Positions 56,343-64,000 of a stretch of DNA of 64,000 nucleotides are shown here, piece after piece. The notes under the pieces are model-generated. The model did no database searches, was not told the DNA's origin, and saw nothing but the letters and a program-made list of their open reading frames with translations. This DNA is from an uncultured Duodenibacillus sp. (GTDB lineage: Bacteria; Pseudomonadota; Gammaproteobacteria; Burkholderiales; Burkholderiaceae_F). Within the stretch, counting starts at the first letter, position 1; each line of letters opens with the position of its first letter. The position numbers and the translations under genes were made by a program. The stretch is taken from positions 21,467-85,466 of the forward strand of contig CALXQS010000007.1 of NCBI GenBank assembly GCA_944390715.1, given 5' to 3'.

Positions 56343-57599
56343 GTGTCAGTTTTCGAGCAGTGGTTCAAACGTGCGGTCCTCGCAGGGACGGTTGTTTTGC
56401 TTGCGGCATGTTCAACGACGCCGCCCGAAGACGAGCCGGTCGTCATCCCCGGCGAGACGATTGTTCCGGTTCCTGAAGAGAGGCCGACGACTGTGCCTGC
56501 CCAGGCGGCTTATCCGCTGGTCGACGGCGCCGTGCGCTTTGCGCGCGTCTCGTTTTCGGAGCTTCCGTCTGTGCCCGAAGCAAGCTGGGAGGCGGCGCTT
56601 TCGGCCTTTAAACGTTCCTGCACTCAAATGGGAACCAAGGCGATTTGGCTTGACGCCTGTTCAAACGCGCAGTTTGTGAAGACCGGAGGCGCACGCGACT
56701 TTTTTCTGACGTGGTTTGATGCTTGGCGCGTGGCTTCGCTTGCCGGCAAAGAAGATGAGAGCATCACTGAGACGGGAATTGCCACTGGCTATTATGAGCC
56801 GATGCTCAGGGGCAGCCGCCGCAGGCACGGCCCCTACCAGCATCCGGTCTATCGCGTTCCGGACGATTTGATCGTTGTCGATCTTCAAAGCCTGCATCCG
56901 GAACTCAAGAACATGCGGCTGCGGGGCAAGCTCGAGGGCCGCAAACTCGTGCCCTACGATACAAGGGCGCAGATTGCACGCCGTTCCGACATGAGGCGCT
57001 ATGTTCTATGCTGGGTGGATGATCCGGTGGAGGCTTTTTTTCTGCAGGTGCAGGGATCGGGCAGAGTGCTTCTTGATGACGGCACATTCATGCGTCTGAG
57101 CTACGCCGATCAGAACGGACATCCGTACAGAGCCATTGCCAATTGGTTGGTAAAAAATGCCGGCCTTTCTCGTTCTGAGATGAGCATGGAGCGCATCAAG
57201 CGCTGGGCGAAAGAAAACCCTGATCGCACGCAGGAGCTGCTAAACGCCAATCCAAGCTTTGTATTTTTCAAAGAGCGAAAAGACGCTGACGAATCAGCCG
57301 GCCCTATCGGCTCGCAGGGCGTTGCGCTTACGCCCGAGGCTTCGATTGCCGTGGACCGCCGCTATTGGCCCATGGGCATGCCTTTTGTGCTTGACATCAA
57401 GCAGGACCGTCCGTACTTGGCAGCTGCGTGCGCCGTTGTGGCCCAAGACACAGGAAGTGCCATCCGGGGCGTGCTGCGCTTTGACTACTTTTGGGGTTAT
57501 GGAGATGAGGCAGGACGCAAGGCCGGCGGTCAAAAAAGCTTGGTTCGAGCGTGGATGCTCATGCCAAAAGGGGAGGATCCCCGCAGACGCCTGCGTTAG
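56343..57599 (+). CDS. mltA: Membrane-bound lytic murein transglycosylase A
   Basis: Lipobox LAAC; TGYYEP, LQVQGSG, NPSFVFF, QDTGSAI, DYFWG. Confidence 0.93.
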   Translation: MSVFEQWFKRAVLAGTVVLLAACSTTPPEDEPVVIPGETIVPVPEERPTTVPAQAAYPLVDGAVRFARVSFSELPSVPEASWEAALSAFKRSCTQMGTKAIWLDACSNAQFVKTGGARDFFLTWFDAWRVASLAGKEDESITETGIATGYYEPMLRGSRRRHGPYQHPVYRVPDDLIVVDLQSLHPELKNMRLRGKLEGRKLVPYDTRAQIARRSDMRRYVLCWVDDPVEAFFLQVQGSGRVLLDDGTFMRLSYADQNGHPYRAIANWLVKNAGLSRSEMSMERIKRWAKENPDRTQELLNANPSFVFFKERKDADESAGPIGSQGVALTPEASIAVDRRYWPMGMPFVLDIKQDRPYLAAACAVVAQDTGSAIRGVLRFDYFWGYGDEAGRKAGGQKSLVRAWMLMPKGEDPRRRLR

Positions 57600-58471: not shown

Positions 58472-59683
58472 ATGAATATTACAAGGAAGAGATTTTTATT
58501 GGCTGCTGGTGCTGCATGCCTTTTGTCTGCTTGCGAGACGACCAATCCGCTGTTAAAAAGCCAAGAACCGACTTTTCGCCCTCCGATAGAACCTCAGCGA
58601 GTGTATTTCGCTGGGGTTTCTTTGACTGGGAATTACAAAGATAATCAAAAAAATACTCCCTTCTCAGTTGGAATGCTCGATGACCTTGATTCTGAAATGA
58701 GAGAGGTGCTTAAGGGAAAGAGCTTCAAATATATAGATTTGGTTACATCGGAACTGGGAGACATCCGCGACGCGGATTCGTTGGCTGTCACGCTGGGCGT
58801 GGATTTGGAAACGGTTGTTGTCTACCCTTGGCCGGAAAATAAATTCAAAGTAGTAGTAGATATTTATACGCAGCTTCTATTCTTCGATTTTGCAGAAAAG
58901 AAGGTTGTTCGCACTGTGCCGATCAACTATCAGTACATTACTTTGCTGAAACATAAACCTTCTCGCAAAGAATTGAAGGACATAATCTATGGGATGTACG
59001 TAGGGAAACTAGACGGAGTAGAAAAGGGAGTTTTGCAGACAGTTGTCGAAAAGCTGCAGAACATCATTGTCCAGTCTAGCTATAAGGCATACCTCAAGGT
59101 TGAAAATGTTGAGATCGGCGACCGCGCGCAGAAAATGGTTGATAGATTTGACATGACGTCAGATCAATTCAAAACATTGATGGCGCAGATGTTTGTTCGC
59201 TCGTTGGTGGACAATTTGGCCGTTGCGGTTATTCCCTACACGGTGGGACAGGCAATAGGCGGCAAGATGGTTGGCCGCTTCAGCAACGGCGTTGAATATA
59301 GTCTGACAATGCCGGAGCCGGATTATGTGTTCGATCTGAGCTTGAGAAGCTGCAAAACCCTCAGGGATGAAGAGTCAAGCAAAACGGTTGACAGAGAAGT
59401 CTATATGGCGCTTTTGAAAATAAAGCTCACGCAAAAGGACTTGGGAACCGTTTATATGGATCGAGTTCTGCGTGCTGTTGGCGAGGCAGCTTTGCTCAAG
59501 GGACAGAAGGGACATCTGGAAGTGGCCTATGTTGAGACCCTGATGGGATTTTTTGAGGGCTTTGCCAGAAGTCTGATCAAGAAGCAAAAGAATTGGTTGG
59601 ACTTGGTCGTGCCATCGGATAAAGTGGCTTCTTTGGAACAGGATTTGAAAAGGGTGTCTGAGGTCATGCCCTTGTGCCGTTAA
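58472..59683 (+). CDS. Uncharacterised lipoprotein, 403 aa
   Basis: MNITRKRFLLAAGAACLLSAC lipobox (Cys21); alpha/beta pattern; no catalytic motif seen. Confidence 0.8.
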   Translation: MNITRKRFLLAAGAACLLSACETTNPLLKSQEPTFRPPIEPQRVYFAGVSLTGNYKDNQKNTPFSVGMLDDLDSEMREVLKGKSFKYIDLVTSELGDIRDADSLAVTLGVDLETVVVYPWPENKFKVVVDIYTQLLFFDFAEKKVVRTVPINYQYITLLKHKPSRKELKDIIYGMYVGKLDGVEKGVLQTVVEKLQNIIVQSSYKAYLKVENVEIGDRAQKMVDRFDMTSDQFKTLMAQMFVRSLVDNLAVAVIPYTVGQAIGGKMVGRFSNGVEYSLTMPEPDYVFDLSLRSCKTLRDEESSKTVDREVYMALLKIKLTQKDLGTVYMDRVLRAVGEAALLKGQKGHLEVAYVETLMGFFEGFARSLIKKQKNWLDLVVPSDKVASLEQDLKRVSEVMPLCR

Positions 59684-59705: not shown

Positions 59706-60794
59706 ATGTCGAAGAAATTTTTGACAATGGCTTGCTGCGCTGTCTTGACAGCTTTCTTTTCTCTGTCAGCGCAGGCAATTGAGGTAAAGGGGCAGGTGTC
59801 ATATCCCTACAAGGGAAAGATTTTCAGCAGCAAGCCTTCGGACAAGGACAAAATGGAGGCAATTAAGCAGGCGAAATTGGCTGCGCTCAAAAAGTTTTCT
59901 ACTGGATTCAGCATTTCTGAACAGAAGCTTTATGCGGGCATGGAAAGTGATGTTCAGGCAAATCTGGACAAATATATTTCCAATTATCGAGTGGTTGCAG
60001 AAGAGGTTGACACAAATCTGAAGACTCTCAATTTGGTCGTGCGTGTGGACATCAACGATTCTTTGCTGCTGTCTGAAATGCATAAGAATTCACCGCAGCA
60101 GCCGGCTGTTCAGGGCGACGGCAGCTTGTTTGCCTCTCTGTTCGTTGCTAGAGAAATTTCTGAAAGCAAGATTTTCGATGAACGGCGCACCACAATCACC
60201 CAAAAGAGCTCAGCGGCATCTACGACACGCGAAGCATCTGCTGGTTCAGTGAATGAATCTGCACAAACAACAGAAAAAGCAACAACCGGCGGCAATACGA
60301 TAAGAAAAAGCGCGGTCAACAAGTATCGTGAATTGGCAACGACAGACTTTAACGCAGCATTCAGTACAGTGCTGACTCAGCTGGGGTTCGAAGCCACAGA
60401 ATATGCCGATGTCCACGAGAACTGCGGGGGACCGAAGCCGGAGGCTCTCAAGGCAGCATTCATGAAGGGAGATGAGATACCCTCCAAATTGAGAAATCAG
60501 GCTATCAGAGCCGCACGATCTTGCGACGTGCGATATTTTGCTACTGGGTATATGAACGTATCGGCACCCCAGAAGGACTCTGTTTCGGGAAAAATCAAAG
60601 TGATGGTGGCCGTAAACGGAATGGTTTGGGATATTTCGAAAAAGTTGCCTCGCAAGGTCGGCTCTGTCGGTCCCGTGCAGGCCTTCGGTCTTGCTGACGA
60701 TCAGGATTCTGCGAGAAGAGAGGCTTTAAGACACGCAGCTTCGGCAGCAGGGCAGGCGATCGCTAACCAGCTGGCCAGCAAAAGCATCCGTTAG
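59706..60794 (+). CDS. Uncharacterised exported protein, 362 aa (possible LPP20/FlgT-N-like N-domain)
   Basis: Signal peptide ending AQA; strong SD; EAIKQAKLAAL helix followed by a beta-hairpin. Confidence 0.75.
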   Translation: MSKKFLTMACCAVLTAFFSLSAQAIEVKGQVSYPYKGKIFSSKPSDKDKMEAIKQAKLAALKKFSTGFSISEQKLYAGMESDVQANLDKYISNYRVVAEEVDTNLKTLNLVVRVDINDSLLLSEMHKNSPQQPAVQGDGSLFASLFVAREISESKIFDERRTTITQKSSAASTTREASAGSVNESAQTTEKATTGGNTIRKSAVNKYRELATTDFNAAFSTVLTQLGFEATEYADVHENCGGPKPEALKAAFMKGDEIPSKLRNQAIRAARSCDVRYFATGYMNVSAPQKDSVSGKIKVMVAVNGMVWDISKKLPRKVGSVGPVQAFGLADDQDSARREALRHAASAAGQAIANQLASKSIR

Positions 60795-60895: not shown

Positions 60896-61576
60896 ATGTT
60901 AAGAAGAAATCTCGTGGCGGGCGCAATCACAGCTTTGATGGTAAGTCCTGCATTTGCCTTCCTTGACAAGGTTGGTCTGGGCGGCGGCAATTCCGGCAAG
61001 GCTGTCGATGCTGACAGCTTCAACAAATCTAGAACAGATCTGGAGAAGAAATACATTCTTGCTGCTGCCGCGGTTCTGGCCTCGCAAATTGATTTGGCGC
61101 AAGCGCTGAATGTCAAAGCTGATATTGCGCAGGCCGAGGAGCTCAATAAGGTTCTCAAGGGCGGCAATTTGTCAAGCGATACAGTGGAGAAGGTTTCGTC
61201 GACCAGCAAGACTCTCAATGAGCAGCTCAAGAAGGGAATGGAAGAGACCGACAAGCTCAGTGCAAAGCAAAAGAAGCTTGTTGGAAGCGGCCTTGTGAAA
61301 TACGCTGCAGGCGTTGCAATGACTGCAGCACTCGGCATCGAAGCAAAGCACGTGGCAGAGTCGGCGACAGATGTTTTGAAGAGTGCCAATCCGATTTCCA
61401 AGGTCAAGCTTGCCTCCGAACTCGGTGCTTGTCTTGCCATCGGCAAGGAACTTCCTTCGCATGCGAAGAATTTGGTGACCGGCGGAAATCAAATGGTTCA
61501 AATCGCGACCAAGAAGGGCGTGAGCACCAAAGGCGCGAAGAAGAAGCTGGCAGAAGCCGCAAATTTTGATTTCTAA
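60896..61576 (+). CDS. Uncharacterised exported alpha-helical protein, 226 aa
   Basis: Signal peptide ending AFA; Ala/Lys/Leu-rich amphipathic helices; AGGA-type SD. Confidence 0.8.
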   Translation: MLRRNLVAGAITALMVSPAFAFLDKVGLGGGNSGKAVDADSFNKSRTDLEKKYILAAAAVLASQIDLAQALNVKADIAQAEELNKVLKGGNLSSDTVEKVSSTSKTLNEQLKKGMEETDKLSAKQKKLVGSGLVKYAAGVAMTAALGIEAKHVAESATDVLKSANPISKVKLASELGACLAIGKELPSHAKNLVTGGNQMVQIATKKGVSTKGAKKKLAEAANFDF

Positions 61577-61661
61577 GAAATTTAAAGTTTGAAGGGATCC
61601 GGCAAGGGATATCAGAGAGGACTTCTTTTGCCGGCATCTCTTTTCCTGAGTCTGATTTGTT

Positions 61662-62912
61662 ATGCGAAATATTTTCAAGCTCTTGGCGCTGTTGTTTTTC
61701 TGGCTGGGAACGCAGAACGCTGTTATGGCGAAAGCTGTTGTCGTCACTTCAGAGGGAACGGGCAGCACTTTTGAGGAAGCGAGAACGTCTGCTTTGCAAG
61801 ATGCGATTATGCAGGTTACAGGCGTGACCTTGGATGCCAGGACTGTTCAGCAGCTGACTCATCAAACGCAGTCTTCCGTTGATAACGGCTCTCAACATCA
61901 GCAAACCTTCACAGAATCCTCTCTTTCTAAAGAGGTCAGAGAAAAACTAAGAGGGTACGTAAATTCGTACCAACTTTTGGATCGACAGCAGCTTGCGGAC
62001 GGCAGACTTCAAGTACGCTTGAAAGTGTCGATAGAAAAGTGGGAATTGAATGTTCCGGCAAACGACAGAAGAACCTTGACAGTGCAGGCTTTTGACGCAT
62101 CAACGGGCGTGTGCTTCAACAATAAGCTGGATGCGGAAGCGATTTCGACTGCCGCTGTTGATGCAATTCAGTCTGCTCTTACTTCCACCAGAAAATTCGC
62201 TGTTTTGGATCGCGACGGGGAAGCCTACGCCGCAGAAAGAGAGTTTTTGACGAAGAACCCGGATGTTAGACCGCAGGAATTGGCCCGCATAGGCAATCTC
62301 AAGGGGTCAGACTATATTCTTTCAGGAAAGGTTCGAAACTTAATCATAGGGCAGACGAAGAATAAGAGTTCTTTAAATAATACGGTGTTCGTGGATAGGT
62401 ATGCACGAGCAGATATTCTTTTCAACGTGATGTTGTTTGCCAATGGTCAGGTTCAGCTTTCAGCGCCAGTAAAGGTAAATATCAGATCTGGGCTTGCAGG
62501 AAAAACATGCGGAGAAATATTGACCGCTCTTATGGAAAATGGCGCCAAGCAAATAGCCGAACAAACTGTCGCTACGATTTTCCCTCCCCGCGTAATTGAG
62601 GTTAATGGACAGGATATTCTCGTAAATTATGGAAGTCCAAATTTCAAAGTGGGACAGACTTACAATATCTATGCTGCCGGGAAAATTATTTATGACCCGT
62701 ATACAAAAGAGCAGCTTGGCCGTTCGGAAGAACTCATAGGTCAAGTCACGGCGGTAGATGTAAAGCCGAAATTTTCGATTCTGCGCATGAAGCAGGCTCA
62801 GTTAACGACAAAGGTTCAGCCTGGAGCGATCGTGCGGCCATTGCAAAAGTCGACTAGCACGACGAAGGCAAAGGCCAAGCGCCGAAAGGTGGTGTCGGAT
62901 GATGAATGGTAG
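61662..62912 (+). CDS. FlgT-like / CsgG-HfaB-fold exported protein, 416 aa
   Basis: N-domain VVVTSEGTG..EEARTSALQDAIMQVTG; middle domain KFAVLDR..SDYILSG; C-domain VIEVNGQDILVNYG..DPYTKEQLG..GQVTAVDV..KFS. Confidence 0.65.
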   Translation: MRNIFKLLALLFFWLGTQNAVMAKAVVVTSEGTGSTFEEARTSALQDAIMQVTGVTLDARTVQQLTHQTQSSVDNGSQHQQTFTESSLSKEVREKLRGYVNSYQLLDRQQLADGRLQVRLKVSIEKWELNVPANDRRTLTVQAFDASTGVCFNNKLDAEAISTAAVDAIQSALTSTRKFAVLDRDGEAYAAEREFLTKNPDVRPQELARIGNLKGSDYILSGKVRNLIIGQTKNKSSLNNTVFVDRYARADILFNVMLFANGQVQLSAPVKVNIRSGLAGKTCGEILTALMENGAKQIAEQTVATIFPPRVIEVNGQDILVNYGSPNFKVGQTYNIYAAGKIIYDPYTKEQLGRSEELIGQVTAVDVKPKFSILRMKQAQLTTKVQPGAIVRPLQKSTSTTKAKAKRRKVVSDDEW

Positions 62913-62969
62913 ACCATTGGTCTGGGTTCTTTCTTGAGACAGCAAGCAAGGAAACAACAAGAATCGACC

Positions 62970-64000
62970 ATGAAACGGTATACAGACGTGCTGCTTTTGA
63001 TCTTTGCCTTTGTTTTGTTTGGCACTCAAGCTGTCTATGCTGATGGAATGTCGAGTGCCATACAAGCTTCAAGGGTATGGAAAAGCATCCAGAATCAAGC
63101 AATAGAGACAGGGGTTTACCGGCAGGCAGGCTACGTCTTCGCATACGTGGTCAAGAAAGTCGACGATCCCGCAACTTTGAGGGTCCAAGAACTTCAGGCA
63201 CAGCGCGAAGCGGGAATGCTGCTGTTTCGTGAATCGGCTCGAGAAGCGGCTTCGCGCGTGCCTCAGAAAGATGTTCCCTATCTGGGCTTTGCGACCGGAA
63301 AGCTCAAAGTTTCGGGGCACGTGCTGCTGAACGATTACGATGGGCATTATGTTCGGTATGTGTTCGCAGTTCGGCAAGAAGATTTTGATGCTGCCGGTGC
63401 AGGCCAAGATGTCTCGCTCCTAGCAAAACAAGGCAGGGAATCGTTGTTGAGCGATCCGAGTCCGCACGTTGCGGCTTTGTGGAAGGCTGGGGAGAAAGAA
63501 CTTGCATTGCTTTCGTTTTTGCGTTCGCTGCCGTTGGGGATTGCAAATATTTCCCCTGAACCCATGTCAGTCCGAAAGTCGCTGCCTGTTTTGCAGAAGA
63601 GTTGGAGCTTGATGGACAAGGCGGCAGGAGTTGTCGGCGAACAGAAACCGGTTGGGAAGCTTGCGGCCAATGCTCTCAGATGTCTTGAGTCCCCATCTGC
63701 TTTTAATCGAGAGTTGAAAAACGAGGGCGTTGCGGCCGGCAGACTTGGGACGCCGTTTGCTTTTGGAGTGACAGCCAGAGTTGAGGCCTGCCATGGTTTT
63801 GTCAGAATGTCTGGCTCTATGCCTCGGACTGAACCTCCTGTCATGGAGCGCGTGAAAAAGTTGTTTGCAGAAGGACGAGATCTTGATCTTGCAATCGAAT
63901 TGCTTTTCTCTGCGGCCGAGCAGGCTCCCGCATCTCCTGTTGTATGGGAGTACTTATATGCTGCTTTGTCGACAGCCGGGCGCACGGAAGAGGCGCATAC
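62970..64000 (+). CDS. Exported protein with TPR-like segment (runs off the window edge; absent from ORF track)
   Basis: Manual translation is open for 343 codons from ATG 62970: MKRYTDVLLLIFAFVLFGTQAVYA signal ... AIELLFSAAEQAPASPVVWEYLYAALSTAGRTEEA. Confidence 0.75.
   Translation, partial: MKRYTDVLLLIFAFVLFGTQAVYADGMSSAIQASRVWKSIQNQAIETGVYRQAGYVFAYVVKKVDDPATLRVQELQAQREAGMLLFRESAREAASRVPQKDVPYLGFATGKLKVSGHVLLNDYDGHYVRYVFAVRQEDFDAAGAGQDVSLLAKQGRESLLSDPSPHVAALWKAGEKELALLSFLRSLPLGIANISPEPMSVRKSLPVLQKSWSLMDKAAGVVGEQKPVGKLAANALRCLESPSAFNRELKNEGVAAGRLGTPFAFGVTARVEACHGFVRMSGSMPRTEPPVMERVKKLFAEGRDLDLAIELLFSAAEQAPASPVVWEYLYAALSTAGRTEEAH

What the first reader, a model, noticed from the sequence alone, without database searches (positions are those of the whole stretch)
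61662..62912. Three-domain FlgT-like protein outside any flagellar context
The N-domain (EEARTSALQDAIMQVTG), CsgG-like middle (KFAVLDR, DYILSG) and C-domain (ILVNYG..DPYTKEQLG..GQVTAV) follow the layout I recall for Vibrio H-ring protein FlgT. Sutterellaceae are generally described as non-motile. This suggests the ring scaffold has been reused for, or is ancestral to, a non-flagellar role.
Basis: partly seen in the sequence, partly recalled or inferred. Interest (0 to 1): 0.65.

Follow-up and report, generated by a model that had tools for sequence, protein, structure and literature searches.

The report
Non-flagellar FlgT-like envelope operon protein
This gene encodes an exported protein built like FlgT, a ring protein of Vibrio flagellar motors. 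The bacterium has no flagellum, and the gene belongs to a widespread, unstudied operon of envelope proteins whose function is still unknown.

Summary
The 416-aa ORF at 61662-62912 (+) is real. It is a remote but end-to-end relative of FlgT. The best fold matches are FlgT structures 3W1E and 8Z5N (E about 1e-18). A profile-profile comparison with bona fide FlgTs gives 98.7% probability over all three domains. Pfam's FlgT models stay below threshold, and a tree puts it outside the FlgT clade.

The genome is 100% complete and shows no flagellin, FlhA, FliG, secretin or CsgF.

The gene is not stand-alone. It is the fourth of six co-directional genes for exported proteins, in a low-GC island. One partner belongs to the DUF6844/FTT1539c family (PDB 4QVR).

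The family is large: 1286 clusters at 50% identity. It spans several phyla, occurs with and without flagella, and coexists with true FlgT. It comes in two operon types, one of which holds the genome's only LpoB-family gene. Family members carry conserved acidic-aromatic C-terminal tails.

Best reading: a subunit of an outer-membrane-tethered periplasmic scaffold that uses H-ring-like building blocks. Its role is unknown. FlgT more likely derives from this family than the reverse.

The scan has met this module before on other DNA, with the same verdict. No paper in the searched library uses the term 'FlgT-like'.

The parts
58472..59683 (+). g1: 403-aa lipoprotein (lipobox LLSAC), first gene of the operon; no known domain
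   Evidence: Family g1L is found next to g2L in 17 loci. No PDB match by profile.
59706..60794 (+). g2: 362-aa exported protein with an LPP20/FlgT_N-like N-terminal domain; relatives show a faint LptE-like C-terminal half
   Evidence: Pfam FlgT_N 0.0087, below cut-off. hhalign g2 family vs FlgT-like family: 90.9% over the N domain. LptE 0.068 in the L045 homologue.
60896..61576 (+). g3: 226-aa exported protein, no known domain, ends in ...NFDF
   Evidence: Family alignment A7 gives only chance heptad-repeat-type matches in PDB.
61591..61642 (+). Stable RNA hairpin between g3 and g4, followed by a U-rich run
   Evidence: -28.4 kcal/mol, z -2.5 against shuffles.
61662..61730 (+). g4 signal peptide (aa 1-23, ...AVMA|KA), no lipobox cysteine
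   Evidence: Read directly from the sequence. Only 5 of 79 family members have a lipobox-like motif.
61731..62039 (+). g4 N domain (aa 24-126), LPP20/FlgT_N-like, with a disordered insert at aa 65-92
62070..62579 (+). g4 middle domain (aa 137-306), CsgG/LpoB/FlgT_M-like alpha/beta fold with the RKFAVLDR and DY motifs
62589..62840 (+). g4 C domain (aa 310-393), FlgT_C/TsaP-like beta barrel with the near-invariant DPYTKExLG motif
   Evidence: (TsaP 6VE2 chain O, E 1.1e-8 with the family profile)
62841..62912 (+). g4 disordered basic tail ending in DDEW, plus the stop codon
   Evidence: pLDDT about 50. 79 of 134 diverse family representatives end in W, mostly [DE][DE]W, and about 24 end in LPFD.
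62934..64000 (+). g5: exported protein of about 382-394 aa (likely start ATG 62970), faint C-terminal TPR; runs to 64118, beyond the window
   Evidence: g6 follows outside the window at 64151-65839 (562 aa, DUF6844/FTT1539c family; L001 7618-9306).

Best explanation
The gene encodes a Sec-exported, non-lipidated periplasmic protein that is a remote full-length homologue of the flagellar H-ring protein FlgT. It has an LPP20-like N domain, a CsgG/LpoB-like middle domain and a TsaP/FlgT_C-like C domain. It works outside any flagellum, as one subunit of a conserved, horizontally mobile envelope module. In this genome the module has six parts: a lipoprotein anchor (g1); a second LPP20-like protein (g2); a small exported protein of unknown fold (g3); the FlgT-like protein (g4); a TPR-tailed protein (g5); and a DUF6844/FTT1539c-family protein (g6). 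Inferred mechanism: the parts assemble into an outer-membrane-tethered oligomeric periplasmic scaffold, possibly ring-shaped. Conserved acidic-aromatic C-terminal tails (DDEW on g4, ...FFF on g6, ...FDF on g3) would dock into neighbouring subunits, as the C-terminal loops of FlgP and FlgO do in the Vibrio H-ring. The scaffold's cellular role is unknown. Stabilising or organising the outer-membrane/peptidoglycan layer is the most likely theme, because the commoner operon type carries the genome's only LpoB-family gene. Shown: homology, export signals, operon conservation, absence of a flagellum. Inferred: oligomeric scaffold, tail docking, envelope role.
For: Fold and profile homology to FlgT over all three domains, with a negative control. 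Signal peptides on all six products and a lipobox only on g1. The same gene order in relatives and in distant taxa. A DUF6844-family partner adjacent in 69 of 77 loci. The g6 family matches PDB 4QVR at 2.3e-71, and the g6 model matches only 4QVR. The g2 N domain is homologous to the g4 N domain. Conserved terminal aromatic motifs in three component families. Tail docking between H-ring layers is described in bioRxiv 10.64898/2025.12.02.691832. The operon's LpoB-like gene scores above the TIGR02722 cut-off and is the only such gene in four type-I genomes. The family is large and conserved: 1286 clusters at E<=1e-30. No flagellar, secretin or CsgF genes in the own genome.
Against: No oligomer was modelled or observed. 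The TM-score to FlgT is low (0.26-0.30), so domain packing differs. The ring that FlgT encircles (FlgH/FlgI) has no counterpart here. The own operon (type II) lacks LpoB and DUF1425, so the peptidoglycan link is indirect. In a random sample only 4 of 10 carriers had a detectable DUF6844-family gene. g1, g3 and g5 have no informative homologues.
Confidence: 0.55

Rival explanations
1. It regulates peptidoglycan synthesis. The CsgG/LpoB-like middle domain and its operon partners would act like LpoB, reaching from the outer membrane to activate or position a class A PBP or a lytic enzyme.
For: The Pfam LpoB hit is above cut-off (27.2 vs 22.3 bits). Type-I operons contain the sole TIGR02722-class LpoB of their genomes. 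The island lies directly downstream of an MltA-like lipoprotein gene at 56343-57599; that identification rests on my reading of the translation and was not profile-tested.
Against: NCBIfam LpoB scores 19.9 bits against a cut-off of 110.55. g4 is not a lipoprotein and lacks LpoB's long N-terminal linker. The own operon has no LpoB or DUF1425 gene. The fold is shared by many unrelated envelope proteins (CsgG, PelC, LptE, GNA1162). The mltA-like neighbour has core-genome GC, whereas the island does not.
Confidence: 0.15
2. It is a CsgG/HfaB-type outer-membrane secretion channel, as databases annotate its relatives, exporting an operon-encoded subunit such as g3.
For: The Pfam CsgG hit is just above cut-off (21.3 vs 20.8). 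Sources name its homologues 'CsgG/HfaB family protein'. CsgG is the second-best group of fold matches.
Against: The match covers only profile positions 8-101 of 210. There is no lipobox cysteine. The model has one polar hairpin (aa 218-258, tip GQTKNKSSLNNT) and no second hairpin where CsgG has its second transmembrane hairpin; the CsgG comparison is from my own knowledge. No CsgF and no other CsgG-family gene in the genome. The curlin-repeat subunit (CsgA) family was not searched. The extra N and C domains match FlgT, not CsgG.
Confidence: 0.07
3. It is a host-interaction or vesicle-cargo factor, as proposed for Francisella FTT1538c, the gene next to the DUF6844 gene FTT1539c.
For: An FTT1538c transposon mutant was mildly attenuated in mice and the protein gave yeast two-hybrid hits (PMC4696196). 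It is enriched in outer-membrane vesicles (PMC6795709). The closest relatives of this gene are from gut and rumen bacteria.
Against: I did not verify that FTT1538c is the FlgT-like orthologue. The authors call the attenuation modest and polar effects possible. The family is common in free-living marine bacteria and in Chlorobium. Vesicle enrichment is expected for any periplasmic or outer-membrane protein.
Confidence: 0.05
4. It is a leftover flagellar FlgT, or a TsaP-like secretin collar, retained after loss of the machine it served.
For: The fold and domain order of FlgT. The C domain resembles TsaP at the sequence level.
Against: No flagellar or secretin genes in the genome. It sits on a long separate branch from FlgT with 100% SH-aLRT support. 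It coexists with true FlgT in three genomes, and where the position could be checked (Amphritea) the two genes are at different loci. The frame is intact, with family-wide invariant residues. It lies in a low-GC acquired island with its own conserved partners. No LysM domain was found.
Confidence: 0.03

Closest known systems
FlgT, H-ring protein of the Vibrio polar flagellar motor (PDB 3W1E, 8Z5N, 9YEF)
   Same: An exported, non-lipidated protein of about 400 aa with the same three domains in the same order. It is the best fold match and gives a 98.7% profile-profile match. In Vibrio it forms a 26-mer ring onto which lipoprotein rings dock through C-terminal loops.
   Different: Pfam FlgT models are below threshold, and a sequence profile does not find 3W1E. 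It sits on a separate long branch. It has no flagellar neighbours, no flagellum, and no FlgH/FlgI ring to encircle. It has different operon partners, and a conserved DPYTKExLG motif and DDEW tail.
Francisella tularensis operon FTT1537c-FTT1540c, including FTT1539c (PDB 4QVR, Pfam DUF6844)
   Same: The g6 family matches 4QVR at E 2.3e-71, and the g6 model matches only 4QVR. Francisella is also non-flagellate (from my own knowledge). A DUF6844 gene is the commonest neighbour of the FlgT-like gene.
   Different: Own g6 is not detected by the Pfam DUF6844 model. I did not check the identity of FTT1538c with the FlgT-like family. The Francisella proteins are known only as immunoreactive or vesicle proteins, with one mild mutant phenotype.
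TsaP, the secretin-associated ring protein of type IV pili (PDB 6VE2 chain O, 3JC8)
   Same: The C domain shares recognisable sequence with the FlgT_C-like domains of TsaP, including the DP.TKE.LG motif (E 1.1e-8).
   Different: No LysM domain, no secretin in the genome, and different N and middle domains.
CsgG curli channel, and the LpoB / PelC / LptE fold group
   Same: The middle domain has this alpha/beta fold and passes the Pfam CsgG and LpoB cut-offs marginally.
   Different: Not a lipoprotein, no transmembrane hairpins, no CsgF (CsgA not searched), and far below the NCBIfam LpoB cut-off.

Membership tests
FlgT (flagellar H-ring protein) | Three domains N-M-C, collinear with FlgT | tested here: met
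   Foldseek 3W1E E 1.3e-18 over 415 columns. hhalign 98.7% over 352 columns.
FlgT (flagellar H-ring protein) | Pfam FlgT_N / FlgT_M / FlgT_C at gathering threshold | tested here: not met
   FlgT_M 13.6 vs 31.2 bits. FlgT_C 14.0 vs 27. FlgT_N no hit. Bona fide FlgTs score 103-115 bits on FlgT_M.
FlgT (flagellar H-ring protein) | Presence of a flagellum (LP ring, T ring) to attach to | tested here: not met
   No Flagellin_N, FHIPEP or FliG_C in a 100%-complete genome. FlgH, FlgI, MotX and MotY were not searched individually.
FlgT (flagellar H-ring protein) | Falls inside the FlgT clade | tested here: not met
   The three FlgTs form their own group on a branch of about 3.5 changes per column on each side, 100% SH-aLRT. 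Only three FlgTs were included.
CsgG/HfaB secretion channel | Full-length Pfam CsgG match | tested here: inconclusive
   21.3 vs 20.8 bits, but only profile positions 8-101 of 210.
CsgG/HfaB secretion channel | N-terminal lipobox cysteine | tested here: not met
   The signal peptide ends AVMA|KA and has no cysteine.
CsgG/HfaB secretion channel | Curli partner genes (CsgF; other CsgG-family genes) | tested here: not met
   No CsgF. The only CsgG-family hit in the genome is this gene. CsgA and CsgE were not searched.
LpoB (PBP1b activator) | NCBIfam TIGR02722 equivalog cut-off | tested here: not met
   19.9 vs 110.55 bits. The operon-encoded LpoB of Amphritea scores 149.9.
TsaP (secretin-associated ring) | LysM domain plus a secretin partner | tested here: not met
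   No LysM hit. No Secretin family gene in the genome.
FlgT-like / DUF6844 envelope module (unnamed; Francisella FTT1537c-1540c type) | FlgT-like gene next to a DUF6844/FTT1539c-family gene, all products exported | tested here: met
   g6 lies two genes downstream. Its family matches 4QVR at 2.3e-71. The pair is adjacent in 69 of 77 loci.
FlgT-like / DUF6844 envelope module (unnamed; Francisella FTT1537c-1540c type) | Conserved acidic-aromatic C-terminus | tested here: met
   g4 ends in DDEW and g6 in FFF.

The most novel reading that the evidence does not exclude
The operon builds a free-standing, outer-membrane-tethered periplasmic ring or cage, an 'orphan H-ring', in bacteria without flagella. 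This widespread module would be the ancestral source from which a subset of Gammaproteobacteria recruited FlgT into the flagellar motor. Its C-terminal DDW/DDF tails would be a general docking code between concentric envelope rings.
Probability: 0.25. Interest if true: 0.75.

Novelty: new variant of a known kind. Interest (0 to 1): 0.55.

Why it matters
The accessory rings of flagellar motors (H ring, basal disk) are treated as lineage-specific inventions of unknown origin. Here is a large, multi-phylum family with the full FlgT architecture. It sits in its own conserved operon and is present in bacteria that never build a flagellum. That gives a concrete candidate for the origin of FlgT. It also points to an undescribed envelope assembly that includes the structurally solved but unexplained Francisella protein FTT1539c and, in many bacteria, the only LpoB-family gene. 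The system is testable in cultivable carriers.

Tried and rejected
- A sequence search of g4 alone against PDB gave only a weak TsaP hit.
- The family profile did not find FlgT by sequence. Homology needed fold search and profile-profile comparison.
- Profiles of g1, g2, g3 and the type-I lipoprotein F2 found nothing informative in PDB. g1 and F2 share only a lipoprotein signal.
- The word-indexed homologue search with the g6 alignment returned only 4 proteins and no named Francisella entry.
- MotA/ExbB-like, OmpA-like and HNH genes downstream of the Alcanivorax copy looked like a stator link. They fit a Zorya-type defence island and recur nowhere else, so I rejected them.
- FliG lies 13 kb from the operon in one genome (G132). 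The genes in between are unrelated, so I treat it as coincidence.
- My greedy ORF caller failed in high-GC loci, so I redid those six-frame.
- Literature searches for 'FlgT-like' and for DUF1425 with LpoB returned nothing. DUF6844 appears in one table only.

Full report
**Observation**

Its N-terminus is a signal peptide without a lipobox cysteine (MRNIFKLLALLFFWLGTQNAVMA|KA).

Pfam gives only partial, marginal matches to the middle of the protein:
- LpoB 4.2e-6 and CsgG 1.8e-4 on aa 135-229, both just above their cut-offs.
- FlgT_C (0.072), FlgT_M (0.077) and LPP20 (0.59), all sub-threshold.
- The NCBIfam LpoB model is far below its cut-off, 19.9 vs 110.55 bits.

**Is it FlgT-like?**

I built an AlphaFold2 model from 30 family members. 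Mean pLDDT is 79. It has three domains: N aa 24-126 with a disordered insert at 65-92, M 137-306, C 310-393, followed by a disordered tail.

- Foldseek against the PDB ranks FlgT first (3W1E, E 1.3e-18, 415 aligned columns) and the Vibrio LPHT ring second (8Z5N, 5.1e-18). CsgG follows, for the middle domain only.
- TM-scores are low (0.26-0.30). I take this to mean that the domains are oriented differently (inference).
- I found bona fide FlgTs with Pfam FlgT_M in three genomes that also carry the FlgT-like gene: Alteromonas, Marinobacterium and Amphritea, at 103-115 bits.
- A profile-profile comparison of the two families gives 98.7% probability, E 3.5e-16, over 352 collinear columns covering all three domains.
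- The same test between the FlgT-like family and the g6 family of the operon gives 0.9%.
- By plain sequence profile the family finds TsaP (6VE2 chain O, 1.1e-8, C domain) and marginally CsgG (0.07), but not FlgT.

So this is a remote, full-length homologue of FlgT and not a member of the FlgT family as defined by Pfam. In a maximum-likelihood tree the FlgTs sit on their own very long branch.

**No flagellum**

The window's genome is 2.2 Mb in 46 contigs and 100% complete by marker genes. It has no match to Flagellin_N, FHIPEP (FlhA) or FliG_C, while the control genomes ring. It also has no secretin, no CsgF, and no CsgG-family gene other than this one. A TsaP-like or curli-like role therefore lacks its partner.

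**Context**

The gene is the fourth of six co-directional genes whose products all begin with an export signal:
- g1, 58472-59683: lipoprotein.
- g2, 59706-60794: an N domain homologous to the g4 N domain, 90.9% by hhalign.
- g3, 60896-61576: small exported protein with no known domain.
- g4, 61662-62912: the FlgT-like protein.
- g5, 62934-64118: faint TPR.
- g6, 64151-65839, outside the window.

The six genes have 45.5-52% GC and GC3 of 49-57%. The genome has 55.2% GC, and the three flanking genes measured have GC3 of 61-72%. This suggests horizontal acquisition.

g6 belongs to the family of Francisella FTT1539c. The family profile hits PDB 4QVR at 2.3e-71, and the g6 model matches nothing else. 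The Pfam DUF6844 model itself misses g6.

**The family elsewhere**

A profile search of 1.84 billion representative proteins finds 1286 clusters at E<=1e-30.

A motif-based scan of one genome per species returned 80 loci. They come from Alpha- and Gammaproteobacteria, Campylobacterota, Desulfobacterota, Chlorobium, Opitutales and Planctomycetota. Two 'odd' phyla, Phycisphaeraceae and Aminobacteriaceae, nest among Oceanospirillaceae on short branches and are probably mis-binned.

Clustering the neighbouring genes shows two operon types:
- Type I: a lipoprotein of about 480 aa, then DUF1425 (YcfL-like), then LpoB, then DUF6844, then FlgT-like.
- Type II, as here: g1, g2, g3, FlgT-like, DUF6844.

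A DUF6844-family gene is adjacent in 69 of 77 loci. In type I the LpoB-like gene passes the NCBIfam LpoB equivalog cut-off (149.9 bits). It is the only such gene in each of the four genomes tested.

Counts in genome samples:
- In an even sample of 301 genomes of the phylum, the FlgT-like gene occurs in 10. Of the 9 carriers other than the window's own genome, 7 have FliG and 2 do not.
- In the same sample, FlgT_M occurs in 18 other genomes. All are in the window's GTDB class (17 in other orders, 1 in the window's own order), and none overlaps the FlgT-like carriers.
- The DUF6844-family profile was detected in only 4 of those 10 carriers. In those whose neighbourhood was examined (G000, G104, G132) it lies beside or within two genes of the FlgT-like gene.
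- In 81 genomes of the window's own GTDB family, 7 carry the gene and 30 have FliG, with no overlap. In the window's genus, 2 of 5 carry it.

The window's protein groups with proteins of Sutterella MAGs, inside a mixed clade of gut and rumen Alphaproteobacteria, Ruminobacter and a myxococcal MAG. This fits transfer among gut bacteria.

**C-terminal tails**

After the C domain comes a disordered, variable linker that ends in a conserved motif:
- 79 of 134 diverse FlgT-like representatives end in W, mostly [DE][DE]W; here it is DDEW. About 24 end in LPFD.
- 68 of 71 DUF6844-family proteins end in F or W, typically DDF. The window's g6 ends FFF.
- 43 of 45 operon LpoB-like proteins end in W.

In the in-situ Vibrio cholerae motor, FlgT forms a 26-mer ring. 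The flexible C-terminal loops of FlgP and FlgO insert into the neighbouring ring (bioRxiv 10.64898/2025.12.02.691832). By analogy, I infer that these tails are docking peptides between layers of an assembly.

**Best explanation**

g4 is a periplasmic subunit of a non-flagellar, outer-membrane-tethered scaffold built with its operon partners. The scaffold uses the same modules and possibly the same tail-docking logic as the H-ring.

- Shown: homology, export signals, operon conservation, independence from flagella.
- Inferred: oligomeric or ring assembly, tail docking, and a role at the outer-membrane/peptidoglycan interface.
- Indirect support for that role: LpoB in type-I operons, and an MltA-like gene directly upstream here. 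The latter may be chance and was read from the translation only.

Because the family is taxonomically much broader than FlgT, recruitment of FlgT from this family is more likely than the reverse. The tree root is not resolved.

**Rivals**

Each has its own entry with evidence for and against:
- A peptidoglycan-synthase regulator.
- A CsgG-type channel.
- A host-interaction or vesicle factor, by analogy with FTT1538c (PMC4696196, PMC6795709).
- A relic of a lost flagellum or pilus.

**Literature and earlier scan notes**

No paper in the searched library uses 'FlgT-like', and DUF6844 appears once, in a table. Earlier follow-ups of this scan reached the same reading for related operons in other genomes. 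I reached the FlgT, 4QVR and tail observations independently before reading them.

**Limits**

- Only three FlgT sequences as outgroup.
- I did not verify that FTT1538c is the FlgT-like orthologue.

Noticed in passing
window 61591-61642: A stable RNA hairpin (-28.4 kcal/mol, z -2.5) followed by a U-rich run lies between g3 and g4. It could be a partial terminator or an mRNA-stabilising element that sets different levels of g1-g3 and g4-g6.
   Followed up: partly
window 56343-57599: The gene directly upstream of the low-GC island encodes a 418-aa lipoprotein that reads like lytic murein transglycosylase MltA. It has core-genome GC (58%), so the adjacency to the envelope operon may be chance.
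   Followed up: no
L004 13096-16360 (Alcanivorax): Downstream of the Alcanivorax copy lie a MotA/ExbB-like protein with a long helical tail, an OmpA-like protein and an HNH protein. The trio looks like a Zorya-type anti-phage system and is unrelated to the operon.
   Followed up: partly
G382:C16:19601-20422 and the same position in G319, G325, G312, G377 (same GTDB family as the window): In relatives of the window's genome, a shorter paralogue of about 300 aa with only the M and C domains sits immediately upstream of the full-length FlgT-like gene. The window's genome has g3 at that position instead.
   Followed up: no
L094 1000-2301 and L061 (Colwellia MAG, G104): One genome without FliG carries two complete copies of the module, one of each operon type, each with its own DUF6844 gene.
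   Followed up: partly
L072 (Phycisphaeraceae MAG) and L027 (Aminobacteriaceae MAG): Their FlgT-like genes are nearly identical in tree position to Oceanospirillaceae genes. These contigs are probably mis-binned and do not show the module in those phyla.
   Followed up: no
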